DNA of 64,000 nt, taken from NCBI RefSeq assembly GCF_009914755.1, contig NC_060933.1, one strand, 5' to 3'. How positions within the stretch are numbered: the first letter of the stretch is position 1; the number at the start of each line of letters is the position of its first letter. Source of the stretch: the human T2T-CHM13v2.0 reference genome, Homo sapiens. The position numbers and the translations under genes were made by a program. This document shows, in pieces, positions 1 through 64,000 of this stretch. Below the pieces are notes generated by a model. The model searched no databases. It had not been told where the DNA came from and saw only the letters and a list, made by a program, of their open reading frames with translations.

Positions 1-99
1 GAATGGAACGAAAAGGAAGGGAATGGAATGGAATAGAATGGAATGGAATGGAATCAACGCGAGTGCAGGGGAATGGAATGGAATGGAATGCAATGGAAT

Positions 100-17437: not shown

Positions 17438-17456
17438 ACGGAATGGGTTTATTCCA
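17438..17456. other. Strand-switch junction 1 (GGAAT> <ATTCC)
   Basis: Sequence ...GGAACGGAAT[GG]GTTTATTCC. The forward repeat ends at 17446 and the reverse complement of GGAATAAACCC begins at 17445, giving 2-bp GG microhomology and no inserted bases. Confidence 0.95.
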
Positions 17457-20400
17457 TTCCATTCCATTCCATTCCGGATGATTCCATTCCATTGCATTCT
17501 ATTCCATTCCATTCCCCTGTACTCGGGTTGATTCCATTCCATTCCACTCCATTCCGTTCCATTCCATTCCATTCCATTGTATTCGGGTTAATTCCATTCC
17601 ATTCCATTCCATTCCATTCCATTCCATTACAATCGAGTTGATTCCATTCCATTCCATTCCATTCCATTCCATTCCAGTCCTTTCCATTCCATTCCACTCG
17701 GGTTGATTCCATTCTATTAGTTTCCATTCCATTCCATTCCCTTCCATTCCACTCTGGTTGATTCCATTCCTTTCCATTCCACTCGAATACATTCCCTCCT
17801 ATTCCACTCGGAACTATTCCATTCCATTCCATTCCATTCCATTCCATTTCGTTCCATTCCATTCTATTCCATATCATTCCATTCCATTCCGTTCCATTCC
17901 ATTCCATTCCATTCCACTCGTGTTGATTCCATTCCTTTCCATTCCATTCGGTTTGAAGGCATTCCATTCCATTCCATTCCATTCCATTCCATTGTACTCG
18001 GGTTGATTCCATTCCATTGCATTCCATTCCATTCCATTCCATTCCATTCCCTTGCATTCCATTCCATTACATTCGGATTGATTCTATTCAAATCCCTTAC
18101 TCTCCATTACATTCCATTCCATACGGGTTGTTCCATTCCATTCCATTCCATTCCACTCCATTCCATTGCACTAGGGTTGATTCCATTCCATTCCATTCCA
18201 TTCCATTCCATTCCGGATGATTCCATTCCATTGCATTCCGTTCCATTACATTCCCCTGCACTCGCGTTCATTCCATTCCATTCCATTCCATTCCATTCCA
18301 TTCCATTCCATACCATTCCGTTCCATTCCATTCCGTTCCGTTCCATTCCATTCCATTCCATTCCATTCCATTCCGTTCCGTTCCGTTCCATTCCATTCCA
18401 TTCCATTCTATTCGGGTTAATTCCATTCCATTCCATTCGATTGCAATCGAGTTGATTCCATTCCATTCCATTCCATTCCATTCCATTCCTTTCCATTCCA
18501 TTACGGATGATTCCATTCCATTGCATTCCATTCCATTCCATTCCCCTGTACTCGGGTTTATTCCATTCCATTCCATTCCAATCCATGCCATTCCACTCGT
18601 GTTGATTCCATCCTTTCCATTCCATTCAAGTTGAATCCATTCCATTGCATTCCATTCAATTTGATTCCATTCGATTGCACTCGGGTTGATTCCATTCCAT
18701 TGCATTCCATTCCATTCAATTCCATTCCATTCCATTCCATTCCATTCCATTCCATTACATTACATTACATTACATTACATTCGGATTGATTCTATTCAAT
18801 TCCCTTACACTGCATTACATTCCATTCCATTCGGGTAGTTTCCATTCCATTCCATTCCATTCCTCTCCATTCCATTGCACTCGGGTTGATTCCATTCCAT
18901 TGCATTCCATTCCATTCCGTTCAATTCCATTCCGTTGCATTCAATTCGATTACATGCGGATTGATTCTATTCAACTCCCTTACTCTCCATTCCATTCCAT
19001 TCCATTCAGGTTGTTCCATTCCATTCCATTCCATTCCACTCCATTCCATTGCAAGCGGGTTGATTCCATTCCATTCCATTCAATTCCATTCCATTCCATT
19101 CCATTCCATTCCATTCCATTCCATTCCATTACAATCGAGTTGATTCCATTCCATTCCATTCCATTCCATTCCTTTCCATTCCATTCCACTCGGGTTGATT
19201 CCATTCTATTAGTTTCCATTCCATTCCAATGCCTTCCATTCCACTCTGGTTGATTCCATTCCTTTCCATTCCACTCGAATACATTCCCTCCTATTCCACT
19301 CGGAACGATTCCATTCCATTCCATTCCATTCCATTCCATTTCGTTCCATTCCATTCTATTCCGTATCATTCCATTCCATTCCATTCCATTCCATTCCATT
19401 CCATTCGATTCCATTCCATTCCATTGTACTCGGGTTGATTCCATTCCATTGCATTCCATTCCATTCCATTCCATTCCATTCCATTCCATTCCATTCCGTT
19501 CCATTCCATTACATTCGGATTGATTCTTTTCAACTCCCTTACTCTCCATTACATTCCATTCCATTCGGATTGTTCCATTCAATTCCATTCCATTCCACTC
19601 CATTCCATTGCACTCGGGTTGATTCCATTCCATTCCATTGCATTCCATTCCGGATGATTCCATTCCATTGCATTCCGTTCCATTACATTCCCCTGCACTC
19701 GGGTTGATTAAATTCCATTCAATTCCATTCCATTCCATTCCATTCCATTCCATTCCCCTGCACTCGCGTTGATTCCATTCCATTCCATTCCATTCCATTC
19801 CATTCCATTCCATTCCATTCCATTCCTTTCCATTCCAGTCCTTTCCATTCCATTCCACTCGGGTTGATTCCATTCTATTAGTTTCCATTCCATTCCATTC
19901 CCTTCCATTCCACTCTGGTTGATTCCATTCCTTTCCATTCCACTCGAATACATTCCCTCCTATTCCACTCGGAACGATTCTATTCCATTCCATTCCATTC
20001 CATTACATTCCATTCCATTCCATTTCGTTCCATTCCATTCTATTCCGTATCATTCCATTCCATTCCATTCCATTCCATTCCATTCCACTCGTTTTGATTT
20101 CATTCCTTTCCATTCCATTCGGTTTGAAGGCATTCCATTCCATTCCATTCCATTCCATTCCATTCCATTCCATTCCATTTCGTTCCATTCCATTCTATTC
20201 CGTATCATTCCATTCCATTCCATTCCATTCCATTCCATTCCATTCCATTCCATTCCATTGTACTCGGGTTGATTCAATTCCATTGCATTCCATTCCATTC
20301 CATTCCATTCCATTCCGTTGCATTCCATTCCATTTCATTCGGATTGATTCTATTCAACTCCCTTACTCTCCATTACATTCCATTCCATTCGGGTTGTTCC

Positions 20401-22639
20401 ATTCCATTCCATTCCATTCCACTCCATTCCATTGCACTCGGATTGATTCCATTCCATTCCATTCCATTCCATTCCATTCCGGATGATTCCATTCCATTGC
20501 ATTCCGTTCCATTACATTCCCCTGCACTCGGGTTGATTCCATTCCATTCCATTCCATTCCATTCGATTCCATTCCATTCCAATTCTTTCCATTCCATTCT
20601 ATACCGTTCCATTCCATTCCATTGCATACAATTCCATTCCATTCCATTCCACTCCGTTCCGTTCCGTTCCGTTCCATTCCGTTCCATTCCATTCCATTCC
20701 ATTCTATTCGGTTTAATTCCATTCCATTCCATTCCATTCCATTCCATTCCATTCTATTCCATTCCATTGCAATCGATTTGAATCCATTGCATTCCATTCC
20801 ATTCCATTCCATTCCATTCCGGAAGATTCCATTCCATTGCATTCCATTCCATTCCATTCCATTCCATTCCATTCCATTCCATTCCATTCCTTTCCATTCC
20901 ATTACAGATGATTCCATTCCATTGCGTTCCATTCCATTCCATTCCCCTGTACTCGGGTTGATTCCATTCCATTCCATTCCAATCCATGCCATTCCACTCG
21001 TGTTGATTCCATTCTTTCCATTCCATTCAAGTTGAATCCATTCCATTGCATTCCATTCCATTCCATTCCCCTGCAGTCGGGTTGTTTCCATTCCATTCCA
21101 TTCCATTCCATTCCGTTCCGTTCGGTTCCGTTCCATTCCATTCCATTCCATTCTATTCGGGTTAATTCCATTTCATTCCATTCCATTCCATTCCATTCCA
21201 TTCCAATCCAGTTGATTCCATTCCATTCCATTCCATTCCATTCCACTCCATTCCAGTCCTTTCCATTCCATTCCACTCGGGTTGATTCCAATGTATTCCT
21301 TTCCATTCCATTCCATTCCATTGCAATCGAGTTGATTCCATTGCTTTGCATTCCATTCCATTCCATTCCATTCCGGATGATTGCATTCCATTGCATTCCA
21401 TTCCATTCCATTCCCCTGCACTCGGGTTGATTCCATTCCATTCCACTCCATTCCGTTCCATTCCATTCCATTGCATTGTATTCGGGTTAATTCCATTCCA
21501 TTCCATTCCATTCCATTCCATTCCATTCCATTCCATTCCATTACAATCGAGTTGATTCCATTCCATTCTAGTCCTTTCCATTCTATTCCTCTCGGGTTGA
21601 TTCCATTCTATTAGTTTCCATTCCATTCCATTCCCTTCCATTCCACTCTGGTTGATTCCATTCCTTTCCATTCCACTCGAATACATTCCCTCCTTTTCCA
21701 CTCGGAACGATTCCATTCCATTCCATTCCATTCCATTCCATTGCATTCCATTACATTTCGTTCCATTCCATTGTATTCCGTATCATTCCATTCCATTCCA
21801 TTCCATTCCATTCCATTCCATTCCATTCCATTCCATTCCATTGTACTCGGGTTGATTCCATTCCATTGCATTCCATTCCATTCCATTCCATTCCATTCCG
21901 TTCCATTCCATTCCATTACATTCGGATTGATTCTTTTCAACTCCCTTACTCTCCATTACATTCCATTCCATTCGGGTTGTTCCATTCCATTCCATTCCAT
22001 TCCACTCCATTCCATTGCACTCGGGTTGATTCCATTCCATTCCATTCCATTCCATTCCGGATGATTCCATTCCATTGCATTCCGTTCCATTACATTCCCC
22101 TGCACTCGGGTTGATTCCATTCCATTCCATTCCATTCCATTCGATTCCATTCCATTCCCCTGCACTCGCGTTGATTCCATTCCATTCCATTCCATTCCAT
22201 TCCATTCCATTCCATTCATTTCCATTCCAGTCTTTTCCATTCCATTCCACTCGGGTTGATTCCATTCTATTAGTTTCCATTCCATTCCATTCCCTTCCAT
22301 TCCACTCTGGTTGATTCCATTCCTTTCCATTCCACTCGAATACATTCCCTCCTATTCCACTCGGAACGATTCCATTCCATTCCATTCCATTCCTTTCCAT
22401 TCCATTCCATTCCATTCCATTCCGTTTCGTTCCATTCCATTCTATTCCGTATCATTCCATTCCATTCCATTCCATTCCATTCCATTCCATTCCATTCCAC
22501 TCGTGTTGATTCCATTCCTTTCCATTCCATTCGGTTTGAAGGCATTCCATTCCATTCCATTCCATTCCATTCCATTCCATTGTACTCGGGTTGATTCCAT
22601 TCCATTGCATTCCATTCCATTCCAATCCGTTGCATTCCA

Positions 22640-25600
22640 TTCCATTACATTCGGATTGATTCTATTCAACTCCCTTACTCTCCATTACATTCCATTCCAT
22701 TCGGGTTGTTCCATTCCATTCCATTCCATACCACTCCATTCCATTGCACTCGGGTTGATTGCATTCCATTCCATTCCATTCCATTCCATTCCATTCCGGA
22801 TGATTCCGTTCCATTGCATTCCGTTCCATTACATTCCCCTGCACTCGCGTTGGTTCCATTCCATTCCATTCCATTCCATTCCATTCCATTCAATTCCATT
22901 CCATTACAATTCGTTGCATTCCATTCTATTCCGTACCATTCCATTCCATTCCATACCATTCCATTCCATTCCATTCCATTCCATTCCATTCCATTCCGTT
23001 CCGTTCCATTCCGTTCCATTCCATTCCATTCCATTCTATTCGGGTTAATTCCATTCCATTCCTTTCCAATCTATTCCATTCCATTGCAATCGAGTTGAAT
23101 CCATTGCATTTCATTCCATTCCATTCCATTCCATTCCATTCCATTGCAATCGAGTTGAATCCATTGCATTTCATTCCATTCCATTCCATTCCATTCCATT
23201 CCGGAAGATTCCATTCCATTGCATTCCATTCCATTCCACTCCCCTGCACTCGCGTTGATTCCATTCCATTCCATTCCATTCCATTCCATTCCGTTCCGTT
23301 CCGTTCCATTTCATTCCATTCCATTCCATTCCATTCCGTTCCGTTCCATTCCATTCCATTCCATTCTATTCGGGTTAATTCCATTCCATTCCATTCGATT
23401 GCAATCGAGTTGATTCCATTCCATTCCATTCCATTCCGTTCCGGATGATTCCATTCTATTGCATTCCATTCCATTCCATTCCCCTGCAGTCGGGTTGATT
23501 CCATTCCATTCCATTCCATTCCATTCCGTTCCATTCCATTCCATTCCATTCTATTCGGGTTAATTCCATTCCATTCCTTTCCATTCCATTCCATTCCATT
23601 CCATTCGAGTTGATTCCATTCCATTCCATTCCATTCCATTCCACTCCATTCCAGTCCTTTCCATTCCATTACACTCGGGTTGATTCCGTTCTATTCCTTT
23701 CCATTCCATTCCATTCCATTGCAATCGAGTTGATTCCATTGCTTTGCATTCCATTCCATTCCATTCCATTCCGGATGATTCCATTCCATTGCATTCCATT
23801 CCATTCCATTCCCCTGCACTCGGGTTGATTCCATTCCATTCCACTCCATTCCGTTCCATTCTAGTCCATTCCATTGTATTCGGGTTAATTCCATTCCATT
23901 CCATTCCATTCCATTCCATTACAATGTAGTTGATTCCATTCAATTCCATTCCATTCCATTCCATTCCAGTCCTTTCCATTCCATTCCACTCGGGTTGATT
24001 CCATTCTATTAGTTTCCATTCCATTCCATTCCCTTCCATTCCAATCTGGTTGATTCCATTCCTTTCCATGCCACTCGAATACATTCCCTCCTATTCCACT
24101 CAGAACGATTCCATTCCATTCCATTCCATTCCATTCCATTCCATTCCATTCCATTCCATTCCAGTTCGTTCCATTCCATTCTATTCCTTACCATTCTATT
24201 CCATTCCATTCCTTTCCATTCCATTCCATTCCACTCGTGGTGATTCCATTCCTTTCCATTCCATTCGGTTTGAAGGCATTCCATTCCATTCCATTCCATT
24301 CCATTCCATTCCATTCCATTCCATTGTACTCGGGTTGATTCCATTCCATTGCATTGCATTCCATTCCATTCCATTCCATTCCATTCCATTCCATTCCGTT
24401 CCATTCCATTCCATTACATTCGGATTGATTCTATTCAATTCCCTTACACTCCATTACATTCCATTCCATTCGGGTAGTTTCCATTCCATTCCATTCCATT
24501 CCTCTCCATTCCATTGCACTCGGGTTGATTCCATTCCATTGCATTCCATTCCATTCCATTCAATTGCATTCCGTTCCATTCCATTCCATTACATTCGGAT
24601 TGATTCTATTCAACTCCCTTACTCTCCATTACATTCGATTCCTTTCGGGTTGTTCCATTCCATTCCATTCCATTCCACTCCATTCCATTGCACTCGGGTT
24701 GATTCCATTCCATTCCATTCCATTCCATTCCATTCCGGAAGATTCCATTCCATTGCATTCCATTCCATTCCATTCCCCTGCACTCGCGTTGATTCCATTC
24801 CATTCCATTCCATTCCATTCCATTCCATTCCATTCCTTTCCGTTCCATTCCATTCCATTCCATTCCATTCCAATCCATTCCATTCCGTTCCGTTCCGTTC
24901 CATTCCATTCCATTCCATTCTATTCGGGTTAATTCCATTCCATTCCATTCGATTGCAATCGAGTTGATTCCATTCCATTCTATTCCATTCCATTCCATTC
25001 CTTTCCATTCCATTACGGATGATTCCATTCCATTGCATTCCATTCCATTCCATTCCCCTGTACTCGGGTTGATTCCATTCCATTCCATTCCAATCCATGC
25101 CATTCCACTCGTGTTGATTCCATTCTTTCCATTCCATTCAAGTTGAATCCATTCCATTGCATTCCATTCCATTCCATTACCCTGCAGTCGGGTTGATTCC
25201 ATTCCATTCCATTCCTTTACATTACATTCCATTGAATTCCGTTCCGTTCCATTCCATTCCATTCCATTCTATTCGGGTTAATTCCATTCCATTCCATTCC
25301 ATTCCATTCCAATCGAGTTGATTCCATTCCATTCCATTCCATTCCATTCCACTCCATTCCAGTCCTTTCCATTCCATTCCACTCGGGTTGATTCCAATGT
25401 ATTCCTTTCCATTCCTTTCCATTCCTTTGCAATCGAGTTGGTTCCATTGCTTTGCATTCCATTCCATTCCATTCCATTCCGGATGATTCCATTCCATTGC
25501 ATTCCATTCCATTCCATTCCCCTGCACTCGGGTTGATTCCATTCCATTCCACTCCATTCCGTTCCATTCCATTCCATTCCATTGTATTCGGGTTAATTCC

Positions 25601-28600
25601 ATTCCATTCCATTCCATTCCATTCCATTCCATTACAATCGAGTTGATTCCATTCCATTCCATTCCATTCCAGTCCTTTCCATTCCATTCCACTCGGGTTG
25701 ATTCCATTCTATTAGTTTCCATTCCATTCCATTCCCTTCCATTCCACTCTGGTTGATACCATTCCTTTCCATTCCACTCGAATACATTCCCTCCTATTCC
25801 ACTCGGAACGATTCCATTCCATTCCATTCCCTTACATTCCATTCCATTCCATTCCATTTCGTTCCATTCCATTCTATTCCGTATCATTCCATTCCATTCC
25901 ATTCCATTCCAATCCACTCGTGTTGATTCCATTCCTTTCCATTCCATTCGGTTTAAAGGCATTCTATTCCATTCCATTCCATTCCATTCCATTCCATTCC
26001 ATTCCATTCCATTGTACTCGGGTTGATTCCATTCCATTGCATTCCATTCCATTCCATTCCATTCCATTCCGTTGCATTCCATTCCATTACATTCGGATTG
26101 ATTGTATTCAACTCCCTTACGCTCCATTCCATTCCATTCCATTCGGGTTGTTCCATTCCATTCCATTCCATTCCACTCCATTCTATTGCACTCGGGTTGA
26201 TTCCATTCCATTCCATTCCATTCCATTCCATTCCATTGCGGATGATTCCATTCCATTGCATTCCGTTCCATTACATTCCCCTGCACTCGCGTTGAATCCA
26301 TTCCATTCCATTCCATTCCATTCAATTCCATTCCATTACAATTCGTTCCATTGCATTCTATTCCGTACCATTCCATTCCATTCCATACCCTTCCATTGCA
26401 TTCCATTCCATTCCATTCCGTTCCATTCCGTTCCATTGCATTCCATTCCATTCTATTCGGGTTAATTCCATTCCATTCCATTCCATTCTATTCCATTCCA
26501 TTTCAATCGAGTTGAATCCATTGCATTTCATTCCATTACATTCCATTCCATTCCATTCCGGAAGATTCCATTCCACTGCGTTCCATTCCATTCCATTACA
26601 TTCGGATTGATTCTATTCAACTCCCTTACTCTCCATTACATTCCATTCCATTCGGGTTGTTCCATTCCATTCCATTCCATACCACTCCATTCCATTGCAC
26701 TCGGGTTGATTGCATTCCATTCCATTCCATTCCATTCCATTCCATTCCATTCCATTCCGGATGATTCCGTTCCATTGCATTCCGTTCCATTACATTCCCC
26801 TGCACTCGCGTTGGTTCCATTCCATTCCATTCCATTCCATTCCATTCAATTCCATTCCATTACAATTCGTTGCATTCCATTCTATTCCGTACCATTCCAT
26901 TCCATTCCATACCATTCCATTCCATTCCATTCCATTCCATTGCATTCCGTTCCGTTCCATTCCGTTCCATTCCATTCCATTCCATTCTATTCGGGTTAAT
27001 TCCATTCCATTCCATTCCAATCTATTCCATTCCATTGCAATCGAGTTGAATCCATTGCATTTCATTCCATTCCATTCCATTCCATTCCATTCCGGAAGAT
27101 TCCATTCCATTGCATTCCATTCCATTCCATTCCCCTGCACTCGCGTTGATTCCATTCCATTCCATTCCATTCCATTCCATTCCATTCCGTTCCGTTCCGT
27201 TCCATTTCATTCCATTCCATTCCATTCCATTCCGTTCCGTTCCATTCCATTCCATTCCATTCTATTCGGGTTAATTCCATTCCATTCCATTCGATTGCAA
27301 TCGAGTTGATTCCATTCCATTCCATTCCATTCCGTTCCGGATGATTCCATTCTATTGCATTCCATTCCATTCCATTCCCCTGCAGTCGGGTTGATTCCAT
27401 TCCATTCCATTCCATTCCATTCCGTTCCATTCCATTCCATTCCATTCTATTCGGGTTAATTCCATTCCATTCCTTTCCATTCCATTCCATTCCATTCCAA
27501 TCGAGTTGATTCCATTCCATTCCATTCCATTCCATTCCACTCCATTCCAGTCCTTTCCATTCCATTACACTCGGGTTGATTCCGTTCTATTCCTTTCCAT
27601 TCCATTCCATTCCATTGCAATCGAGTTGATTCCATTGCTTTGCATTCCATTCCATTCCATTCCATTCCGGATGATTCCATTCCATTGCATTCCATTCCAT
27701 TCCATTCCCCTGCACTCGGGTTGATTCCATTCCATTCCACTCCATTCCGTTCCATTCTAGTCCATTCCATTGTATTCGGGTTAATTCCATTCCATTCCAT
27801 TCCATTCCATTCCATTACAATGTAGTTGATTCCATTCAATTCCATTCCATTCCATTCCATTCCAGTCCTTTCCATTCCATTCCACTCGGGTTGATTCCAT
27901 TCTATTAGTTTCCATTCCATTCCATTCCCTTCCATTCCAAACTGGTTGATTCCATTCCTTTCCATTCCACTCGAATACATTCCCTCCTATTCCACTCAGA
28001 ACGATTCCATTCCATTCCATTCCATTCCATTCCATTCCATTCCATTCCATTCCAGTTCGTTCCATTCCATTCTATTCCTTACCATTCTATTCCATTCCAT
28101 TCCTTTCCATTCCATTCCATTCCACTCGTGGTGATTCCATTCCTTTCCATTCCATTCGGTTTGAAGGCATTCCATTCCATTCCATTCCATTCCATTCCAT
28201 TCCATTCCATTCCAGTGTACTCGGGTTGATTCCATTCCATTGCATTGCATTCCATTCCATTCCATTCCATTCCATTCCATTCCATTCCGTTCCATTCCAT
28301 TCCATTACATTCGGATTGATTCTATTCAATTCCCTTACACTCCATTACATTCCATTCCATTCGGGTAGTTTCCATTCCATTCCATTCCATTCCTCTCCAT
28401 TCCATTGCACTCGGGATGATTCCATTCCATTGCATTCCATTCCATTCCATTCAATTGCATTCCGTTCCATTCCATTCCATTACATTCGGATTGATTCTAT
28501 TCAACTCCCTTACTATCCATTACATTCGATTCCTTTCGGGTTGTTCCATTCCATTCCATTCCATTCCACTCCATTCCATTGCACTCGGGTTGATTCCATT

Positions 28601-32520: not shown

Positions 32521-32600
32521 ATTCCATTCCATTCCCCTGCAGTAGGGTTGATTCCATTCCATTCCATTCCATTCCATTCCGGATGATTCCATTCCACTGC

Positions 32601-44635: not shown

Positions 44636-44645
44636 AATGGAATGG
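44625..44645. other. Strand-switch junction 2 (<ATTCC GGAAT>)
   Basis: Sequence ...CATTGCAC[ACGG]AATGGAATGG. The paralog at ~42238 reads TTGCACACGGGTTCATTCC, so the inverted block is truncated at 44635. Microhomology is 2-4 bp (GG to ACGG). Confidence 0.95.
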
Positions 44646-53600: not shown

Positions 53601-54215
53601 GAATGGAAGGCAATGGAATGCAATCATCCGAAATGGAATGGAATTGCATGGAATGGAATGGTTTCAACCCGAATGGAATGGAATGGAAAGGAATCAACCC
53701 AAGTGGAATGGCATGGAATGGAATGGAATGGAATGGAATGGAATGGAATGGAATGGAATGGTATGGAATAGAATGGAATGGAACGAAATGGAATGGAAGG
53801 GAATGGAATGGAATGGAATGGAATCAACCCGACTGCAATGGAATGGAGTGGAATGGAATGGAATGGAATGGAAACAACCCGAATGGAATGGAATGTAATG
53901 GAGTGTAAGGGAATTGAATACAATCAATACGAATGTAATGGAATGGAATGGAACGGAACGGAATGGAATGGAATGGAATGGAATGGAATGGAATGGAATG
54001 GATTCAACCCAAATGGAATGGAAAGCAATGGAATCAACCCGAGTGGAATGGCATGGAACGGAATGGAATGGAATGGTATGGAATAGAATGGAATGCAAAG
54101 AAATGGAATGGAATGGAATGGAATGGAACGGAATGGAATGGAAAGGAATGGAATGGAATGGAATGGAATAGAATGGAATGGAACGAAATGGAATGGAATG
54201 GAACGGAATGGAATG
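44636..54215 (+). repeat. HSat3 block 3a: GGAAT on +, module type B
   Basis: Orientation returns to GGAAT after ...TTGCACACGG at 44635. Same type-B modules (AAACCTAG ~44770, ~47914, ~49793; CCGTGTGC ~46927, ~48741, ~50561; AATTAAAAAG ~45410, ~51747). Confidence 0.88.
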
Positions 54216-57200
54216 GAATCAATCCGAGTGGAATAGAAGGGAATGCAATCGAGTAGAATGGAAAGGAATGGAATCAACCAGAGTGGAATGGAAGGGAATG
54301 GAATGGAATGGAATGGAATGGAATGGAATGGAATGGAATGGAATCAAGTCGATTGCAATGGAATGTAATGGAATGGAGTGGAATGGAATTAACGCGAATA
54401 GAATGGAATGGAATGGAATGGAATGGAATGGAATCAACCTGAGTGCAGGGGAATGGAATGCAATGGAATGCAATGGAATGCAAAGGAATGGAATGGAATG
54501 GAATGGAATCAACGCGAGTACAGGGGAATGGAATTTAATGGAATGCAATGGAATGGAATCTTCCGGAATGGAATGGAATGGAATGGAATCAACCCGAGTG
54601 CAATGGAATGGAGAGGAATGGAATGGAATGGAATGGAACAACCCGAATGGAATCGAATGTAATGGAGAGTAAGGGAGTTGAATAGAATCAATCCGAATGT
54701 AATGGAATGGAATGGAACGGAATGGAATTGAATGGTATCGAATGGAATGCAATGGAATGGAATCAACCCGAGTGCAATGGAATGGAGAGGAATGGAATGG
54801 AATGGAATGGAAACTACCCGAATGGAATGGAATGTAATGGAGTGTAAGGGAATTGAATAGAATCAATCCGAATGTAATGGAATGGAATGGAACGGAATGG
54901 AATGGAATGGAATGGCATGGAATGGAATGGAATGGAATACAATGGAATGGAATCAACCCGAGTGCAATTGAATGGAATCGAATGTAATGGAATGCAATGG
55001 AATGGATTCAACTTGAATGGAATGGAAAGAATGGAATCAATACGAGTGGAATGGCATGGATTGGAATGGAATGGAATGGAATCAACCCGAGTACAGGGGA
55101 ATGGAATGGAATGGAATGCAATGGAATGGAATGGAATCAACCCGAGTGCAATGGAATGGAGTGGAATGGAATGGAATGGAATGGAACAACCCGAATGGAA
55201 TGGAATGTAATGGAGAGTAAGGGAGTTGAATAGAATCACTCCGAATGTAATGGAATGGAACGGAATGGAATGGAATGGAATGGAATGGAATGGAATGGAA
55301 TGGAATGGAATGCAATGGAATGGAATCAACCCGAGTACAATGGAACGGAATGGAATGTAATGTAATGTAATGGAATGGAATGGAATGGAATGGAATGGAA
55401 TGGAATCAACCCGAGTGCAATGGAATGGAGAGGAATGGAATGGAATGGAATGGAAACTACCCGAATGGAATGGAATGTAATGGAGCGTAAGGGAATTGAA
55501 TAGAATCAATCCGAATGGAATGGAATGGAATGGAACGGAATGTAATGGAATGGAATGAAATGGAATCAACCTGAGTGCAGGCGAATGGAATGGAATGGAA
55601 TGCAATGGAATGGAATCATCCGGAATGGAATGGAATGGAATGCAATGGAATGGAATGGAATGGAATCAACCCGAGTGCAATGGAATGGAGTGAAATGGAA
55701 TGGAATGGAATGGAAACAACCAGAATGGATTGGAATATATTGGAGTGTAAGGGAATGGAATAGAATCAATCTGAATGTAATGAAATGGAATGGAACGGAA
55801 TGGAATGGAATGGAATGGAATGCAATGGAATGGAATCAACCCGAGTGCAATCGAATGGAATCGAATGGAATGGAATGCAATGGAATGGATTCAACTTGAA
55901 TGGAAAGGAAAGAATGGAATCAACACGAGTGGAATGGCATGGATTGGAATGGAATGGAATGGAATCAACCCGAGTACAGGGGAATGGAATGGAATGGAAT
56001 GCAATAGAATGGAATCATCAGTAATGGAATACAAAGGAATGGAAAGGACTGGAATGGAATGGAATGTAATGGAATGGAATGGAATCAACTCGATTGCAAT
56101 CGAATGGTATGGAATGGAATGGAATCAACTCGATTGCAATCGAATGGAATGGAATGGAATTAACCCGAATAGAATGGAATGGAATGGTATGGAACGGAAC
56201 GGAATGGAATGGAATGGAATGGAATGGAACGGAAAGGAATGGAATGGAATGGAATGGAATGGAATGGAATGGAATGGAATGGAATCGAATGGAATCAACG
56301 CGCGTGCAGGGGAATGGAATGGAATCGAATGGAATGGAAAGGAATGGAATGGAATCAACCCGAGTGCAGGGGAATGTAATGGAACGGAATGCAATGGAAT
56401 GGAATCATCCGGAATGGAATGGAATGGAATCAACCCGAGTGCAATGGAATGGAGTGGAATGGAATGGAATGGAATGGAACAACCCGAATGGAATGGAATG
56501 TAATGGAGAGTAAGGGAGTTGAAAAGAATCAATCCGAATGTAATGGAATGGAATGGAACGGAATGGAATGGAATGGAATGGAATGCAATGGAATGGAATC
56601 AACCCGAGTACAATGGAATGGAATGGAATGGAATGGAATGGAATGGAATGGAATGCAATGGAATGGAATCTTCCGGAATGGAATGGAATGGAATGGATTG
56701 GAATGGAATGCAATGGATTCAAATCGATTGCAATGGAATGGAATAGAATGGAATGGAATGGAATGGAATGGAATGGAATTAAACCGAATAGAATGGAATG
56801 GAATGGAATGGAAAGGAACAGAACGGAATGGAACGGAACGGAGTGGAATGGAATGGAATGGAATTGTATGGAATGGAATGGAATGGTACGGAATAGAATG
56901 GAATGGAAAGAATTGGAATGGAATGGAATCGAATGGAATGGAATGGAATGGAATGGAATCAACCCGAGTGCAAGGGAATGTAATGGGACGGAATGCAATG
57001 GAATGGAATCATCCGGAATGGAATGGAATGGAATGGAATGGAATGGAATGGAATCAACCCGAGCGCAATGGAATGGAGTGGAATGGAATGGAATGGAATG
57101 GAACAACCCGAATGGAATGGAATGTAACGGAGAGTAAGGGAGTTGAATTGAATCAATCCGAATGTAATGGAATGGAACGGAATGGAATGGAAGGGAATGG

Positions 57201-60200
57201 AATGGAATGGAATGGAATGGAATGGAATGCAATGGAATGGAATCAACCCGAGTACAAAGGAACGGAATGGAATGTAATGTAATGTAATGGAATGGAATGG
57301 AATGGAATGGAATGGAATCAACCCGAGTGCAATGGAATGGAGAGGAATGGAATGGAATGGAATGCAATGGAATGGAATCATCCGGAATGGAAAGGAATGG
57401 AATGGAATGCAAAGCAATGGAATCAACTCGATTGCAATGGAATGGAATGGAATGGAAAGGAATACATTGGAATCAACCCGAGTGGAATGGAATGGAAAGG
57501 ACTGGAATGGAGTGGAATGGAATGGAATGGAATGGAATGGAATGGAATCAACTCGATTGGAATGGAATGGAATGGAATGGAATGGAATGGAATGGAATGG
57601 AATTAACCCGAATAGAATGGAATGGAATGGAATGGAACGGATCGGAATGGAATGGAATGGAATGGAATGGAAGGGAATGGAATGGAATGGAAACAACCCG
57701 ACTGCAGGGGAATGGAATGGAATGGAATGGAATGGAAGGACACGGAATAGAATGCAATGGAACGAAATGGAATGGAATGGAATGGAATGGAATGGAATGG
57801 AATGGAATGGAATCGTTCCGAGTGGAATAGGAGGGAATGTATTCGAGTGGAATGGAATGGAATGGAATCAACCAGAGTGGAATGGAAGGGAATGGAATGG
57901 AATGGAAACTAATAGAATGGAATCAACCCGAGTGGAATGGAATGGAAAGGACTGGAATGGAATGGAATGGAATGGAATCAACTCGATTGTAATGGAATGG
58001 ACTGGAATGGAATGGTATGGAATGGAATGGAATGGAATTAACCCGAATACAATGCAATGGAATGGAATGGAACGGAATGGAGTGGAATGGAATGGAATCA
58101 ACCCGAGTGCAGGGGAATGGAATGGAATGGAAAGCAATGGAATGGAATCATCCGGAATGGAATGGAATGGAATGGAATGCAAAGCAATGGAATCAACTCG
58201 ATTGCAATGGAATGGAATGGAATGGAAAGGAATACATTGGAATCAACCCGAGTGGAATGGAATGGAAAGCACTGGAATGGAGTGGAATGGAATGGAATGG
58301 AATGGAATGGAATCAACTCGATTGGAATGGAATGGAATGGAATGGAATGGAATGGAATTAAACCGAATAGAATGGAATGGAATGGAATGGAACGGAACGG
58401 AATGGAATGGAATGGAATGGAATGGAATGGAATGGAAACAACCCGACAGCAGGGGAATGGAATGGAATGGAATGGAAACAACCCGACTGCAGGGGAGTGG
58501 AATGGAATGGAATGCAAAGGAATGGATTCAACTTGAATGAAATGGAAAGAATGGAATCAACACGAGTGGAATGGCTTGGATTGGAATGGAATGGAATGGA
58601 ATCAACCCGAGTACAGAGGAATGGAATGGAATGGAATGCAATGGAATGGAATTATCCGTAATGGAATGGAAAGGAATGGAATGGAATGGAATGGAATGGA
58701 ATGGAATCAACTCGATTGCAATCGAATGGAATGGAATGGAATTAACCCGAATAGAATGGAATGGAATGGAATGGAATGGAACGGAACGGAATGGAATGGA
58801 TTGGAATGGAATGGAATGGAATGGAATGGAACGGAAAGGAATGGAATGGAATGGAATGGAATGGAATGGAATGGAATCAACGCGAGTGCAGGGCAATGGA
58901 ATGGTATGGAATACAATGGAATGGAATCTTCCGGAATGGAATGGAATGGAATGGAATGGCATGAAATGCAATGGATTCAACTCGATTGCAATGGAATGGA
59001 ATAGAATGGAATGGAATGGAATGGAATGGAATTAACCCGAATAGAATGGAATGGAATGGAATGGAACGGAATGGAACGGAATGGAATGGAATGGAATGGA
59101 ATGGAATGGAATGGAATGGTATGGAATGGAATGGAATGGAATCAACCCGAGTGCAATGGAATGGAGTGGAATGGAATGGAATGGGATGGAACAACCCGAA
59201 TGGAATGGAATGTAATGGAGAGTAAGGGAGTTGAATAGAATCAGTCCGAATGTAATGGAATGGAATGCAACGGAATGGAATGGAATGGAATTGAATGGAA
59301 TGGAATGGAATGGAATCAACCCGAGTACAATGGAATGGAATGGAATGGAATGGAATGGAATGGAATGGAATTGAATGGAATGGAATGCCTTCAAACCGAA
59401 TGGAATGGAAAGGAATGGAATCAACAAGAGTAAAATGGAATGGAATGGAATGGAAAGGAATGGAATGGAATGGAATGGTACGGAATAGAATGGAATGGAA
59501 CGAAATGGAATGGAATGGAATGGAATGGAATGGAATGGAATGGAATGGAATGGAATGGAATCGATCCGAGTGGAATAGGAGGGAATGTATTCGATTGGAA
59601 TGGAAAGGAATGGAATCAACCAGAGTGGAATGGAAGGGAATGGAATGGAATGGAAACTAATAGAATGGAATCAACCCGAGTGGAATGGAATGGAAAGGAC
59701 TGGAATGGAATGGAATGGAATGGAATGGAATGGAATGGAATCAACTCGATTGTAATAGAATGGAATGGAATGGAATGGAATGGAATGGAATGGAATGGCA
59801 TGGAATGGAATTAACCCGAATACAATGGAATGGAATGGAATGGAACGGAATGGAGTGGAATGGAATGGAATCAACCCGAGTGCAGGGGAATGGAATGGAA
59901 TGGAATGCAATGGAATGGAATCATCCGGAATGGAATGGAATGGAATGGAATGCAAAGCAATTGAATCAACTCGATTGCAATGGAATGGAATGGAATGGAA
60001 AGGAATAGAATGGAATCAACCCGAGTGGAATGGAATGGAAAGGACTGGAATGGAGTGGAATGGAATGGAATGGAATGGAATGCAATCAACTCGATTGGAA
60101 TGGAATGGAATGGAATGGAATGGAATGGAATCAACTCGATTGCAATCGAATGGAATGGAATGGAATTAACCCGAATAGAATGGAATGGAATGGAATTTAA

Positions 60201-63200
60201 CGGAACGGAATGGAATGGAATGGAATGGAATGAAATGGAACGGAACGGAACGGAATGGAATGGAATGGAATGGAATGGAATGGAAAGGAATCATCGCGAG
60301 TGCAGGGGAATGGAATGGAATGGAATGCAATGGAATGGAATCTTCCGGAATGGAATGGAATGGAATAGAATGGAATGAAATGCAATGGATTCAACTCGAT
60401 TGCAATGGAATGGAATGGAATGGAATGGAATGGAATGAAATGCAATGGATTCAACTCGATTGCAATGGAATGGAATAGATTGGAATGGAATGGAATGGAA
60501 TGGAATGGAATGGAATGGAATGGAATTAACCCGAATAGAATGGAATGGAATGGAATGGAACGGAATGGAAAGGAATGGAATGGAATGGAATGGAATGGTA
60601 TGGAATGGAATGGAATGGTACGGAATAGAATGGAATGGAACGAATTGTAATGGAATGGAATTGAATGGAATGGAATGCAATGGAATGGAATGGAATCAAC
60701 GCGAGTGCAGGGGAATGTAATGGAACGGAATGCAATGGAATGGAATCATCCGGAATGGAATGGAATGGAATGGAATGGAATGGAATCAACCCGAGTGCAA
60801 TGGAATGGAGTGGAATGGAATGGAATGGAATGGAACAACCCGAATGGAATGGAATGTAATGGAGAGTAAGGGAGTTGAATAGAATCAATCCGAATGTAAT
60901 GGAATGGAATGCAACGGATTGGAATGGAATGGAATGGAATGGAATGCAATGGAATGGAATCAACCCGAGTACAATGGAATGGAATGGAATGGAATGGAAT
61001 GGAATGGAAAGCCTTCAAACCGAATGGAATGGAAAGGAATGGAATCAACACGAGTGGAATGGAATGGAATGGAATGGAATGGAATGGAATGGAATGGAAT
61101 GATACGGAATAGAATGTAATGGAACGAAATGGAATGGAATGGAATGGAATGGAATGGAATGGAATGAAATGGAATGGAATCGTTCCGAGTGGAATAGGAG
61201 GGAATGTATTCGAGTGGAATGGAAAGGAATGGAATCAACCAGAGTGGAATGGAAGGGAATGGAATGGAATGGAAACTAATAGAATGGAATCAACCCGAGT
61301 GGAATGCAATGGAAAGGACTGGAATGGAATGGAATGGAATGGAATGGAATGGAATGGAATCAACTCGATTGGAATGGAATGGAATGGAATGGAATGGAAT
61401 GGAATTAACCCGAATACAATGGAATGGAATGGAATGCAACGGAATGGAGTGGAACGGAATGGAATCAACCCGAGTGCAGGGGAATGCAATGGAATGGAAT
61501 GCAATGGAATGGAGTCATCCGGAATGGAATGGAATGGAATGGAATGCAAAGCAATGGAATCAACTCGATTGCAATGGAATGGAATGGAATGGAAAGGAAT
61601 ACATTGGAATCAACCCGAGTGGAATGGAATGGAAAGGACTGGAATGGAGTGGAATGGAATGGAATGGAATGGAATGGAATCAACTCGATTGGAATGGAAT
61701 GGAATGGAATGGAATGGAATGGAATGGAATGGAATTAACCCGAATAGAATGGAATGGAATGGAATGGAACGGAACGGAACGGAACGGAACGGAATGGAAT
61801 GGAATGGAATGGAATGGAATGGAATGGAATGGAATCAACCCGACTACAGGGGAATGGAATGGAATGGAAAGCAATGGAATGGATTCAACTTGAATGGAAT
61901 GGAAAGAATGGAATCAACACGAGTGGAATGGCATGGATTGGAATGGAATGGAATGGAATCAACCCGAGTACAGGGGAAAGGAATGGAATGGAATGCAATG
62001 GAATGGAATCATCCGTAATGGAATGGAAAGGCATGGAATGGAATGGAATGGAATGGAATGGAATGGCATGGAATCAACTCGATTGCAATCGAATGGAATG
62101 GAATGGAATTAACCCGAATAGAATGGAATGGAATGGAATGGAACAGAACGGAACGGAATGGAATGGAATGGAATGGAATGGAACGGAAAGGAATTGAATG
62201 GAATGGAATGGAATGGAATGGAATGGAATGGAATGGAATCAACGTGAGTGCAGGGGAATGGAATGGAATGGAATGCAATGGAATGGAATCTTCCGGAATG
62301 GAATGGAATGGAATGGAATTGAATGGAATCAACCTGAGTGCAATGGAATGGAGTGGAATGGAATGGAATGGAATGGAACAACCCGAATGGAATCGAATGT
62401 AATGGAGAGTAAGGGAGTTGAATAGAATCAATCCGAATGTAATGGAATGGAATGGAACGGAATGGAATTGAATGGTATGGAATGGAATGCAATGGAATAG
62501 AATCAACGTGAGTGCAATGGAATGGAGAGGAATGGAATGGAATGGAATGGAAACTACCCGAAAGGAATGGAATGTAATGGAGTGTAAGGGAATTGAATAG
62601 AATCAATCCGAATATAATGGAATGGAATGGAACGGAATGGAATGGAATGGAATGGAATGGAATGGAATGGAATGGAATGGAATGGAATGCAATGGAATGG
62701 AATCAACCCGAGTGCAATCGAATGGAATCGAATGGAATAGAATGCAATGGAATGGATTCAACTTGAATGGAATGGAAACAATGGAATCAATACGAGTGGA
62801 ATGGCATGGATTGGAATGGAATGGAATGGAATCAACCCGAGTACAGGGGAATGGAATGGAATGGAATGCAATGGAATGGAATCATCCGTAATGTAATGGA
62901 AAGGAATGGAATGGAATGGAATGGAATGGAATGGAATGGAATGGAATGGAATCAACTCGATTGCAATCAAATGGAATGGAATGGAGTTAACCCAAATAGA
63001 ATGGAATGGAATGGAATGGAACGGAACGGAATGGAATGGAATGGAATGGAATGGAATGGAATCAACGCGAGTGCAGGGGAATGTAATGGAACGGAATGCA
63101 GTGGAATGGAATCATCCGGAATGGAATGGAATGGAATGGAATGGAATGGAATCAACCCGAGTGCAATGGAATGGAGTGGAATGGAATGGAATGGAATGGA

Positions 63201-64000
63201 ACAACCCGAATGGAATGGAATGTAATGGAGAGTAAGGGAGTTGAATAGAATCAATCCGAATGTAATGGAATGGAATGCAATGGATTGGAATGGAATGGAA
63301 TGGAATGGAATGCAATGGAATGGAATCAACCCGAGTACAATGGAATGGAATGGAATGGAATGGAATGGAATGGAAAGCCTTCAAACCGAATGGAATGGAA
63401 AGGAATGGAATCAACACGAGTGGAATGGAATGGAATGGAATGGAATGGAATGGAATGGAATGATACGGAATAGAATGGAATGGAACGAAATGGAATGGAA
63501 TGGAATGGAATGGAATGGAATGGAATAGTTCCGAGTGGAATAGGAGGGAATGTATTCGAGTGGAATGGAAAGGAATGGAATCAACCAGAGTGGAATGGAA
63601 GGGAATGGAATGGAATGGAAACGAATAGAATGGAATCAACCCGAGTGGAATGCAATGGAAAGGACTGGAATGGAATGGAATGGAATGGAATGGAATGGAA
63701 TGGAATCAACTCGATTGTAATGGAATGGAATGGAATGGAATGGAATGGAATGGAATGGAATGGAATTAACCCGAATACAATGGAATGGAATGGAATGCAA
63801 AGGAATGGAGTGGAATGGAATGGAATCAACCCGAGTGCAGGGGAATGCAATGGAATGGAATGCAATGGAATGGAGTCATCCGGAATGGAATGGAATGGAA
63901 TGGAATGCAAAACAATGGAATCAACACGATTGCAATGGAATGGAATGGAATGGAAAGGAATACATTGGAATCAACCCGAGTGGAATGGAATGGAAAGGAA
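54216..64000 (+). repeat. HSat3 block 3b: GGAAT on +, module type A (mosaic transition ~54216-54510)
   Basis: Type-A modules return (GGAATCTTCCGG 54555, GAGAGTAAGGGAGTTG ~54665, CAACTTG ~55009) and continue to the window end. Confidence 0.88.
60690..64000 (+). repeat. ~2.36-kb period repeat (second copy from ~63056, truncated by the window end)
   Basis: Shared variants AAAGCCTTCAAAC (~61008/~63374), GTGGAATGCAATGGAAAGGACT, GGAGTCATCC (~61511/~63872). Confidence 0.82.

What the first reader, a model, noticed from the sequence alone, without database searches (positions are those of the whole stretch)
17447..63900. ~46-kb degenerate palindrome hidden inside the satellite
Rare variants pair the inverted block with the downstream forward block along a roughly monotonic anti-diagonal. 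17470-19060 pairs with 62330-63885 (private AATAGTTCCGAG at ~17812/~63524). 22250-24270 pairs with 59390-61330 (same doubled 60-bp module, AATAGATTGG, GCAACGGATTGG). ~31690 pairs with ~54961 (GAGTGCAATTG). 36070-38770 pairs with 48740-51510, 40260-41355 with 45315-46430, and 42530-43460 with 44645-45430. The left arm (~26 kb) is longer than the right (~19 kb), partly because of the 3.9-kb tandem duplication. The inverted block is therefore a diverged mirror copy of its neighbour, not an unrelated flipped piece.
Basis: partly seen in the sequence, partly recalled or inferred. Interest (0 to 1): 0.85.

Follow-up and report, generated by a model that had tools for sequence, protein, structure and literature searches.

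The report
Amplified inversion module in chr9 satellite
A flipped 27-kb block in the chromosome 9 satellite III array is mirror-symmetric with its neighbour only over the inner 11-12 kb, and its two junctions recur 85 and 20 times along the array, so it is one copy of an old, amplified module and not a local 46-kb palindrome.

Summary
The strand flip is real: bases 17,447-44,632 are C-rich inside a G-rich HSat3B5 array.

Mirror symmetry about the right junction (J2) is solid for about 11-12 kb per side (x 30.8-43.5k against y 44.6-55.9k).
- The core is 95% identical, against about 0.83 to upstream sequence.
- A boundary between two sequence variants is mirrored.
- A 1,156-bp unpaired spacer lies next to J2.

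The outer 13-15 kb of the claimed arms is not established.

Both junctions are repeated. The J2 40-mer occurs 85 times and the J1 40-mer 20 times. All copies lie on chr9 at 52.3-76.4 Mb, on both strands, and the sampled copies have colinear flanks. Left-arm and right-arm cores keep their sides of J2 across the array.

Best reading: an old inverted duplication with a spacer, probably formed by fold-back, later copied as the array grew. Strand switches here are already published. That they fall into junction families was not stated in what I read.

The parts
1..17446 (+). Upstream G-rich (GGAAT) HSat3B5 array, variant 'A'
   Evidence: GGAAT 45-64 and ATTCC 0 per 500 bp up to base 17,000; 45 and 7 in the bin that holds the junction. 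The HSat3B5 24-mer matches on the minus strand. The array stays forward for a further 20 kb upstream.
17426..17465 (.). J1, the G-rich to C-rich junction (...GGAACGGAATGG / GTTT / ATTCCATTCC...)
   Evidence: Sequence. This 40-mer occurs 20 times in the genome (10 plus, 10 minus), all exact and all on chr9 at 55.9-75.5 Mb; the control pattern gave 0. It is not a mirror axis: the band around 2 x J1 holds the best upstream hit for 2 of 33 tiles.
17447..44632 (-). Inverted (C-rich) block, 27,186 bp; the only one between -20 kb and +94 kb
   Evidence: HSat3B5 24-mer matches lie on the plus strand from 18,102 to 43,450.
17447..30780 (-). Outer part of the block (variant A'); mirror relation to 55.9-63.9k not established
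Evidence: 11 of 30 tiles match downstream better than upstream. Better partners lie at -13 to -11k and at 70-71k.
21394..31403 (-).
   Evidence: Local alignment of 21,394-27,498 against 25,500-31,403 gives 0.90 identity at offsets of 3,905-4,106 bp. 1-kb tiles 23-25 match tiles 27-29 at 0.95-0.98 or better.
30781..43476 (-). Left arm of the supported inverted duplication (variant B' plus about 2 kb of A')
   Evidence: Global alignment to 44,633-54,763, with segments at 0.79-0.985 identity. Colinear anchors at x+y sums of 86.66-86.98k extend to 30,781 / 55,905.
36001..38500 (-). Left-arm core
   Evidence: Mean identity 0.95 on diagonal 87,520; the next diagonal gives 0.873. Of 24 genomic copies at 94% or more, 20 sit on the C-rich side of a J2 copy.
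43477..44632 (-). Unpaired spacer (1,156 bp) next to J2, partly built from local duplicates
   Evidence: Left as an end gap in the global alignment. 43,833-44,632 resembles 41,400-42,232 at 0.95-0.98, and 42,633-43,832 resembles 35,326-36,497 at 0.905-0.995, both on the same strand.
44621..44660 (.). J2, the C-rich to G-rich junction (...CCATTGCA / CACGGAATGG...)
   Evidence: Sequence. The 40-mer with up to 2 mismatches occurs 85 times (49 plus, 36 minus; 71 exact), all on chr9 at 52.34-76.36 Mb; the control gave 0. All 40 candidates scored (of 1,047) gave full-length 200-bp matches at 91-100% identity, ours included.
44633..55905 (+). Right arm of the supported inverted duplication (variant B plus about 1.3 kb of A)
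   Evidence: Homology to the left arm starts within about 4 nt of J2.
49001..51500 (+). Right-arm core
   Evidence: Mirror partner of 36.0-38.5k. 28 of 35 full-length genomic copies sit on the G-rich side of a J2 copy.
32500..33000 (-). A'/B' variant boundary in the left arm
   Evidence: The fraction of 18-mers shared with the upstream array falls from 0.8 or more to 0.44.
54500..54750 (+). B/A variant boundary in the right arm, mirror of the left boundary (sum about 87.2k)
   Evidence: The same measure rises from 0.58 or less to 0.73-0.80.
55906..63909 (+).

Best explanation
The window holds one copy of a recurrent inversion module of the human chr9 HSat3B5 array.

Structure. A 27.2-kb C-rich block lies in a G-rich array. 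Its right junction, J2, is the centre of an old inverted duplication. About 11-12 kb on each side are mirror images, and the right arm starts at the junction itself. The left arm runs on for 1,156 unpaired bases before reaching J2. That is the layout a fold-back or template-switch inverted duplication leaves behind.

Proposed history.
1. The two arms diverged to about 5% in the best-kept core and to background level elsewhere.
2. The module, with J2 and often with the left junction J1, was copied many times as the array expanded, in both orientations. The copying includes the multi-megabase duplication in this genome.
3. Each copy then acquired its own deletions and local duplications.

Shown: the strand flip, the inner mirror symmetry, the spacer, the junction copy numbers, the colinear flanks in sampled copies, and the side-specific arm lineages.

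Inferred: the fold-back origin, the order of events, and the idea that flips between inverted copies produced both orientations.
For: Inner symmetry.
- Tiles 36,001-38,001 match downstream at 0.938-0.961, at x+y sums of 87,489-87,574, against 0.824-0.863 upstream.
- One diagonal dominates: 87,520 gives 0.95, the next gives 0.873. This argues for unit-specific pairing and against a generic periodic echo.
- 23 of 24 inner 500-bp tiles match downstream better than upstream.
- The variant boundary is mirrored.

Spacer. The global alignment leaves 43,477-44,632 unpaired. Base-level reading shows right-arm homology up to about 4 nt from J2. Published fold-back duplications carry spacers of 766-70,466 bp (passages).

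Junction families.
- J2 40-mer: 85 copies. J1 40-mer: 20 copies. All on chr9; controls 0.
- All 40 scored 200-bp windows across J2 match at 91-100%. The 20 full-length matches across J1 are at 96-100%.
- Of 10 J2 copies sampled out of 85, 9 are colinear with this locus for the first 1 kb to the right. 8 are colinear for the tile 1.0-0.5 kb to the left. Identities are 0.90-1.00, and the arms are colinear for up to 9.5 kb.

Arm lineages.
- 20 of 24 left-core copies at 94% or more lie on the C-rich side of the nearest J2. None lies on the other side; 4 have no J2 within 40 kb.
- 28 of 35 right-core copies lie on the G-rich side, 1 on the other side, and 6 have none nearby.

Amplification.
- J1 to J2 spacings recur at 27.2, 36.2 (twice, plus two reversed pairs at 36.1), 40.4 and 45.3-45.4 (twice) kb. 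22 J2 pairs lie 10.55-10.67 Mb apart on the same strand.
- Nurk 2022 reports a multi-megabase HSat3 duplication on this chromosome (passages).
Against: - About half of the inner arm length aligns only at background level, 0.79-0.84. The symmetry rests on a few conserved stretches plus position.
- Shuffling block order did not show significant colinearity for the inner block alone (46 of 200).
- The arms are not each other's closest relatives. The left core has 96-98% copies elsewhere against about 95% to its partner.
- Part of the spacer is itself a duplicate of left-arm sequence. One sampled copy (52.339 Mb) lacks 2.4 kb next to J2. The original junction anatomy may therefore be altered.
- Sampling was thin. 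Only 10 of 85 J2 copies and 1 of 19 other J1 copies were examined. In that J1 copy the inverted side is colinear for less than 500 bp.
- The genome search scored only 40 of 9,270, 1,047 and 8,483 candidates.
- 4 of 24 left-core and 6 of 35 right-core copies have no J2 within 40 kb, and one right-like copy sits on the left side.
- No reads were available to check the assembly at this locus.
Confidence: 0.7

Rival explanations
1. A single local palindrome of about 46 kb, in which the whole inverted block (17.4-44.6k) is the mirror copy of 44.6-63.9k. The left arm was later lengthened by a 3.9-kb tandem duplication and smaller insertions.
For: - The rare markers pair as stated.
- Pairs 1 and 2 are the best reverse-complement sites within the window, 0.917 vs 0.878 and 0.890 vs 0.873.
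- A 4-kb run x 22,001-26,000 against y 57,649-61,649 reaches 0.925, versus 0.873 for the best upstream run.
- The order of outer blocks is colinear with the downstream block (3 of 200 shuffles reach it, z = 2.6) and not with the upstream block.
- An alignment with free outer ends runs x 17,448 to y 63,909.
Against: - With 50 kb of added flanks, only 5 of 30 outer tiles have their best downstream hit on these diagonals and only 3 of 30 are best overall.
- x 18-20k matches -13.4 to -11.4k at 0.95-0.96, and x 30-32k matches 70.5-71.5k at 0.945-0.955.
- Strictly private 20-mers scatter.
- In the window, the outer-tile enrichment downstream (8 of 27, 7 of 20) barely exceeds upstream (6 of 25).
- The left region is a repeated 3.9-4.1-kb unit, so several parallel diagonals are expected anyway.
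- Both junctions are multi-copy, so the structure did not arise here.
Confidence: 0.12
2. No inverted duplication took place. A large direct tandem duplication ([B-A][B-A], period about 25.4 kb) existed first. A plain inversion then flipped roughly one unit, which gives the look of a palindrome. The module was amplified afterwards.
For: - Arrays of this kind grow by direct duplication.
- The upstream block is variant A, as this model needs.
- An inversion of length close to the period puts the mirror axis near one breakpoint. The axis here lies about 0.9 kb left of J2 (sum 87.5k against 2 x J2 = 89.26k).
Against: - The model needs the inversion length (27.2 kb) to match the period within about 1.8 kb.
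- It predicts same-strand homology between 17.45-19.2k and 42.9-44.63k. That homology is below 0.86.
- If the upstream block is the preceding repeat unit, the model also predicts a mirror axis at J1. None is seen (2 of 33 tiles).
- Right-arm homology begins at J2 itself. That is natural for a fold-back and a coincidence in this model.
Confidence: 0.13
3. Artefact or chance. The strand flip is a misassembly, or the mirror pattern is ordinary satellite self-similarity.
For: - Background reverse-complement identity in this satellite is already about 0.80-0.82.
- An ungapped repeat finder returns thousands of inverted pairs at 72-76%.
- No reads were available to check the assembly.
Against: - 85 J2 and 20 J1 copies have identical junction 40-mers, and the sampled copies have colinear flanks.
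- The core reaches 0.95 against a next-best diagonal of 0.873. No shuffle reached the observed colinear score (0 of 200).
- Independent assemblies report about 129 orientation switches per chr9 haplotype, and hundreds across assemblies (passages).
Confidence: 0.03

Closest known systems
Strand-switch ('mosaic inversion') structure of the chr9 HSat3B5 array in complete human assemblies
   Same: Same array and same phenomenon. The Altemose 2021 preprint reports over 200 inversion breakpoints for the chr9 HSat3B5 array together with beta-satellite arrays (passages). Nurk 2022 mentions a 'mosaic inversion structure' in HSat arrays (passages). A 2026 pangenome preprint gives about 129 orientation switches per chr9 haplotype (passages). 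A 2026 Asian pangenome preprint finds that switch number correlates with array length, r = 0.90 (passages).
   Different: The passages I read count switches. The Asian pangenome preprint calls them randomly distributed 'stochastic byproducts' of expansion. Here the junctions fall into sequence-identical families (J2 85 copies, J1 20 copies) with colinear flanks in sampled copies, and J2 sits at the centre of a mirrored pair of arms. I did not see the supplements of these papers (the bioRxiv ones are closed), so the point may be made there.
Fold-back inverted duplications with a single-copy spacer (Hermetz et al. 2014, PLoS Genet)
   Same: Two inverted arms. One arm starts at the junction; the other continues into an unpaired spacer. 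The spacer here (1,156 bp) falls within the published range of 766-70,466 bp, median 3,428 bp (passages).
   Different: The published cases are recent, megabase-scale, next to terminal deletions, and have 2-8 bp of inverted microhomology. This one is old, interstitial, kilobase-scale and later amplified. Its junction microhomology cannot be read reliably, because both partners are pentamer repeats and the spacer has been remodelled.
Large palindromes kept near-identical by arm-to-arm gene conversion (human Y-chromosome palindromes; recalled, not from a call)
   Same: Inverted arms around a short spacer inside repetitive DNA.
   Different: Arm identity here is 0.79-0.96, not above 99.9%. Each arm has closer relatives elsewhere than its partner. 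There is no sign of arm-to-arm homogenisation.
Palindromic units in human rDNA arrays (Caburet et al. 2005; seen only as a title in a reference list)
   Same: Inverted units embedded in a tandem array.
   Different: A different repeat. I did not read that paper, so no detailed comparison is made.

Membership tests
HSat3 subfamily B5 (chr9 pericentromeric satellite) | Derived from the (CATTC)n / (GGAAT)n pentamer | tested here: met
   44-67 pentamer matches in every 500-bp bin of the window.
HSat3 subfamily B5 (chr9 pericentromeric satellite) | Subfamily-specific 24-mer listed for HSat3B5 by Altemose 2014 | tested here: met
   The 24-mer was taken from the paper's table. It gives 72 matches with up to 1 mismatch, against 0 in shuffles. 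The match strand follows the block orientation.
HSat3 subfamily B5 (chr9 pericentromeric satellite) | Located in the large chr9 array | tested here: met
   The window is C9:75,516,001-75,580,000. This lies within the 52.3-76.4 Mb span that holds the junction copies.
Satellite strand switch (inversion breakpoint) | Abrupt change of repeat strand within one array | tested here: met
   Two switches, at 17,446/17,451 and 44,632/44,633. No others occur between -20 kb and +94 kb.
Palindrome / inverted duplication | Colinear reverse-complement homology on one anti-diagonal, above array background | tested here: met
   Met for x 30.8-43.5k against y 44.6-55.9k. Not met for x 17.4-30.8k once flanks are added.
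Palindrome / inverted duplication | The arms are each other's closest relatives | tested here: not met
   The left core has copies of 96-98% identity elsewhere on chr9, against about 95% to its mirror partner. The best other copy of the right core is 96%.
Fold-back inverted duplication with spacer | One arm begins at the junction; a single-copy spacer is contiguous with the other arm | tested here: met
   Right-arm homology reaches within about 4 nt of J2. 1,156 bp of the left side is unpaired. Caveat: the last 800 bp of the spacer duplicates 41,400-42,232.
Fold-back inverted duplication with spacer | Short inverted microhomology between the spacer end and the start of the duplication | tested here: inconclusive
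   A TGCA lies at the spacer end, and another at 43,492-43,495 near the other spacer boundary. The junction they would predict does not match the observed one, and pentamer repeats make short matches uninformative.
Fold-back inverted duplication with spacer | Associated terminal deletion or dicentric intermediate | not testable with these tools
   The event is old and interstitial, and no ancestral sequence is available.
Gene-conversion-maintained palindrome (Y-chromosome type) | Arm identity above 99.9% (recalled criterion) | tested here: not met
   Aligned segments are 0.79-0.985 identical, and the core about 0.95.

The most novel reading that the evidence does not exclude
Most C-rich to G-rich strand switches of the 9q12 satellite III array descend from one ancestral fold-back palindrome (J2). 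That palindrome was carried along as the array expanded. The array's 'hundreds of inversions' would then be a handful of events plus amplification and flips. J2 and J1 k-mers would serve as lineage markers for how the array, and its size polymorphism, grew. The repeated inverted modules could also be preferred sites for further rearrangement in this region.
Probability: 0.5. Interest if true: 0.6.

Novelty: new member of a known kind. Interest (0 to 1): 0.5.

Why it matters
The chr9 satellite III block is the largest satellite array in the human genome, and it varies greatly in size between people. It is also the site where stress-induced satellite III RNA is made (passage). Published work counts its strand switches and, in one preprint, treats them as random by-products of expansion.

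If the switches are instead copies of a few junctions, three things follow.
- The number of independent inversion events is far smaller than the count of switches.
- Junction k-mers give a simple handle for tracing array history across complete genomes.
- Claims about strand-specific satellite transcription need to allow for fixed, repeated inverted modules (compare).

For this scan, the result also shows that a palindrome call inside a satellite needs flanks and genome-wide copy counts before its size is believed.

Tried and rejected
I replaced it with tiled fit alignments.
One paper id was not held.
- The repeat finder returned 3,969 inverted pairs, of which the 25 longest shown are ungapped and 72-76% complementary. 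It follows the pentamer register and does not pick out the true arms.
- J1 as a second mirror axis: rejected. The band around 2 x J1 is best for 2 of 33 tiles, and the tiles next to J1 are at 0.81-0.87.
- A duplication-triplication model, in which the upstream block is a direct copy of the right arm at an offset of about 46.5 kb: rejected. The only strong direct match is 2,001-5,750 against 55,257-59,000 at an offset of 53.26 kb.
- The spacer as an inverted copy of the upstream block's end: rejected. Tiles 43,501 and 44,001 match upstream at only 0.83-0.84.
- Same-strand homology between 17.45-19.2k and 42.9-44.63k, predicted by the plain-inversion rival: below 0.86.
- Similarity between the last 166 bp before J1 and the first bases after J2 looked suggestive. 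The module is multi-copy, with best matches at 55,104, 57,021, 3,750 and others, so I dropped it.
A single 10-kb stretch around one J1 copy was obtained instead.
Full report
WHAT IS IN THE WINDOW

The window is pentamer satellite throughout, with 44-67 GGAAT or ATTCC matches in every 500-bp bin. The strand is G-rich from base 1 to about 17,446, C-rich from 17,447 to 44,632, and G-rich again to 64,000. GC skew runs +0.6, -0.6, +0.6.

The 24-mer that Altemose 2014 lists for subfamily HSat3B5 (passages) matches 72 times with up to one mismatch, against none in shuffles. Its strand follows the blocks.

The junctions read ...GGAACGGAATGG / GTTT / ATTCCATTCC... (J1) and ...CCATTCCATTGCA / CACGGAATGGAATGG... 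(J2). With 20 kb added upstream and 30 kb downstream, this is the only inverted block in 114 kb.

All four rare markers are private to the stated pairs. One also occurs in the tandem-duplicate copy.

I aligned the reverse complement of 500-bp, 1-kb and 2-kb tiles of the inverted block to all forward sequence. Identity here means (length + score) / (2 x length), with +1 / -1 / -1 scoring. Background identity is about 0.80-0.82.

Two sequence variants emerge.
- Variant A covers 0-17k, 17.4-32.5k (inverted) and about 54.6-64k. It is internally repetitive, with many partners at 0.90-0.98.
- Variant B covers 33-44.6k (inverted) and 44.6-54.6k. Almost nothing there exceeds 0.86 except the mirror partner.

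In the inner part, tiles 36,001-38,001 match at 0.938-0.961 on x+y sums of 87,489-87,574, against 0.824-0.863 upstream. The diagonal at 87,520 averages 0.95; the next best is 0.873. 23 of 24 inner tiles match downstream better than upstream.

The 1.7-kb band centred on x+y = 87.5k holds the best downstream hit for 21 of 40 tiles. The next independent band holds 9 of 40 and lies 3.9 kb away. The best upstream band holds 9 of 35.

Shuffling the order of 2-kb blocks never reached the observed colinear path score against the downstream block (0 of 200, z = 4.0). Against the upstream block, 142 of 200 shuffles did. The same test on the inner block alone was not significant (46 of 200). Only a few blocks align well, so the test has little power there.

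The A/B boundary is mirrored. Similarity to the upstream array drops at x about 32.5-33.0k and rises at y about 54.5-54.75k, giving a sum of about 87.2k.

One is top only if an 80-bp indel is allowed. One (~31.7k / ~55.0k) is beaten by at least four upstream sites.

THE CENTRE

A global alignment of the inner arms pairs x 43,476 down to 32,501 with y 44,633 up to 54,763. It leaves 43,477-44,632 (1,156 bp) unpaired. Segment identities range from 0.79 to 0.985. About half the length is at background level.

Read base by base, the reverse complement of the right arm's start follows the left arm up to about 4 nt from J2. So the right arm begins at the junction, while the left arm continues into a spacer. 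This is the layout of fold-back inverted duplications, whose spacers span 766-70,466 bp (Hermetz 2014, passages).

The centre has since been remodelled. 43,833-44,632 is a same-strand copy of 41,400-42,232 at 0.95-0.98. 42,633-43,832 is a same-strand copy of 35,326-36,497 at 0.905-0.995.

J1 is not a mirror axis. The band around twice its position is best for only 2 of 33 tiles.

THE OUTER ARMS

Inside the window the evidence is mixed.

In favour:
- A 4-kb run x 22,001-26,000 against y 57,649-61,649 reaches 0.925, versus 0.873 for the best upstream run.
- Outer block order is colinear with the downstream block (3 of 200 shuffles reach it).
- x 26.5-32.5k has its best downstream diagonal at exactly 87,520: 0.879, versus 0.870 for the best upstream diagonal.

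Against:
- Only 11 of 30 outer tiles match downstream better than upstream.
- x 28,001-32,000 fits upstream better, 0.907 versus 0.885.
- Strictly private 20-mer pairs scatter over sums from 66k to 90k.
- The outer-tile enrichment downstream (8 of 27, 7 of 20) barely exceeds upstream (6 of 25).

The added flanks weigh heavily against the outer arms. x 18-20k matches -13.4 to -11.4k at 0.95-0.96. x 30-32k matches 70.5-71.5k at 0.945-0.955. For the inner tiles the figure is 10 of 21, all of them best overall.

Several parallel diagonals are therefore expected whatever the history.

I conclude that the mirror relation is supported from about x 30.8k / y 55.9k inward. Further out it is not distinguishable from general array self-similarity.

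THE GENOME-WIDE VIEW CHANGES THE READING

The window's genome is held. The left-arm core (36,001-38,500) has many full-length copies at 94-98% identity elsewhere on chr9, on both strands. That is closer than its local mirror partner at about 95%.

Junction copy numbers:
- Two hundred bases across J2 gave full-length matches at 91-100% for all 40 candidates scored, of 1,047.
- Two hundred bases across J1 gave 20 full-length matches at 96-100%, with all 25 candidates scored.
- The J2 40-mer with up to 2 mismatches occurs 85 times (49 plus, 36 minus; 71 exact).
- The J1 40-mer occurs 20 times (10 plus, 10 minus; all exact).
- Every copy lies on chr9, J2 between 52.34 and 76.36 Mb and J1 between 55.9 and 75.5 Mb. 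Control patterns gave 0.

I fetched 10 kb on each side of 10 of the 85 J2 copies.
- In 9 of 10, the first 1 kb to the right is colinear with this locus.
- In 8 of 10, the tile 1.0-0.5 kb to the left is colinear. Identities are 0.90-1.00.
- Left arms are colinear for 6-9.5 kb in six copies. Right arms are colinear for 5.5-9.5 kb in three copies.
- Beyond that, the copies jump by kilobases, which indicates deletions and duplications.

One other J1 copy shares 2.5 kb on the G-rich side at 0.94-0.99, but less than 500 bp on the inverted side.

THE ARMS ARE TWO LINEAGES THAT KEEP THEIR SIDES

- Of 24 full-length copies at 94% or more to the left core, 20 lie on the C-rich side of the nearest J2 copy, none on the other side, and 4 have no J2 within 40 kb.
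- Of 35 full-length copies of the right core (85-96%), 28 lie on the G-rich side, 1 on the other side, and 6 have no J2 within 40 kb.

J1 to J2 spacings recur at 27.2 kb (this locus), 36.2 kb (twice, plus two reversed pairs at 36.1 kb), 40.4 kb, and 45.3-45.4 kb (twice). Three short blocks of 8.4 kb also occur. Twenty-two same-strand J2 pairs lie 10.55-10.67 Mb apart. That fits the multi-megabase HSat3 duplication reported for this genome (Nurk 2022, passages).

A generic pattern for C-to-G switches gave 511 matches, of which only the first 100 were listed. On chr9 52.34-55.31 Mb these make 20 sites. Fifteen carry the J2 sequence, four carry a second junction type (CCATTACGG...), and one is different. 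Switch types must alternate along a chromosome, and J1 has only 20 copies against 85 for J2. Other G-to-C junction families must therefore exist (inference).

HOW IT MOST LIKELY AROSE

An inverted duplication with a spacer of about 1.2 kb formed once in variant-B sequence. This is inferred from the layout, and fold-back or template switching fits best.

The single dominant diagonal argues against a plain inversion inside a periodic array, which would give several comparable diagonals. An inversion of one unit of an earlier 25-kb direct duplication is not excluded. It would need the inversion length to match the period closely, and its predicted secondary homologies are absent.

The arms then diverged. 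The module was later spread by the duplications that built the array, and each copy acquired its own changes. The near-equal numbers of plus and minus copies suggest larger inverted duplications or flips between inverted copies (inferred).

WHAT IS KNOWN

Strand switches in this array are published:
- Over 200 breakpoints, for this array together with beta-satellite arrays (Altemose 2021 preprint, passages).
- A 'mosaic inversion structure' (Nurk 2022, passages).
- About 129 switches per haplotype (2026 pangenome preprint, passages).
- A correlation with array length, r = 0.90, with switches described as randomly distributed stochastic by-products (2026 Asian pangenome preprint, passages).

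Searches for HSat3 together with palindrome, inverted duplication, fold-back, inverted repeat or mosaic inversion found no description of junction families or of a mirrored module in this array. I read passages only. The bioRxiv supplements are closed, and the journal version of Altemose 2022 was not held under the id I tried. The point may therefore already be in print.

VERDICT

- The flip is real and of a known kind.
- The palindrome is real but about half the claimed size.
- The structure is old, and it is one of about 85 copies.
- The junction-family observation is the part worth following up.

Noticed in passing
window 2001-5750 and 55257-59000: A 3.75-kb direct repeat at about 97-100% identity per 250-bp step, offset about 53.26 kb, spanning the inverted block. 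The flanks fall to 0.80-0.88. It is much younger than the mirror arms. It could be a conversion tract or a small dispersed duplication. It explains why the upstream diagonal near 30.4k echoes the downstream one near 83.65k.
   Followed up: partly
window 44641-44755, 47776-48025, 51041-51146, 53962-54058; inverted at 43226-43475, 35889-36138, 32921-33170: A recurring module roughly every 3.0-3.3 kb in variant B, mirrored in both arms. Variant B therefore has its own multi-kilobase unit.
   Followed up: partly
G000 chr9 52,748,550; 53,795,421; 53,839,718; 54,581,667: A second family of C-rich to G-rich junctions reading ...CCATTACGGAATGG..., at four sites in the listed part of the scan. A single ...CCATTCGGAATGG... 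site lies at 54,755,076.
   Followed up: no
G000 chr9 60,202,479-60,210,879; 70,845,482-70,853,887; 70,855,015-70,863,430: Three short blocks of 8.4 kb bounded by a reversed J1 copy and a forward J2 copy. This shows the two junctions recombined into other arrangements.
   Followed up: no
G000 chr9 71,177,744; 71,188,102; 71,198,440; 71,208,763 (and twins near 60.52-60.55 Mb): The right-arm core is repeated four times at a spacing of about 10.3 kb, to the right of one J2 copy. This is a local tandem amplification of the right arm.
   Followed up: no
G000 chr9 52,339,071 (J2 copy): This copy lacks about 2.4 kb next to J2 on the C-rich side compared with this locus (shift of -2,400 to -2,620 over 8 kb). 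The missing piece is the interval between the two direct copies at window 41,400-42,232 and 43,833-44,632. It is either a deletion between them or the older state.
   Followed up: partly
G000 chr7 58,725,949; 59,006,831; 59,037,543: The generic strand-switch pattern also hits three sites on chr7, so pentamer satellite there has C-to-G switches too.
   Followed up: no
G000 chr9 75,617,145-75,619,679 (window coordinate about 101k): A forward copy of the right-arm core at 91% identity lies 56.5 kb to the right of this locus's J2, beyond the flanks I fetched.
   Followed up: no
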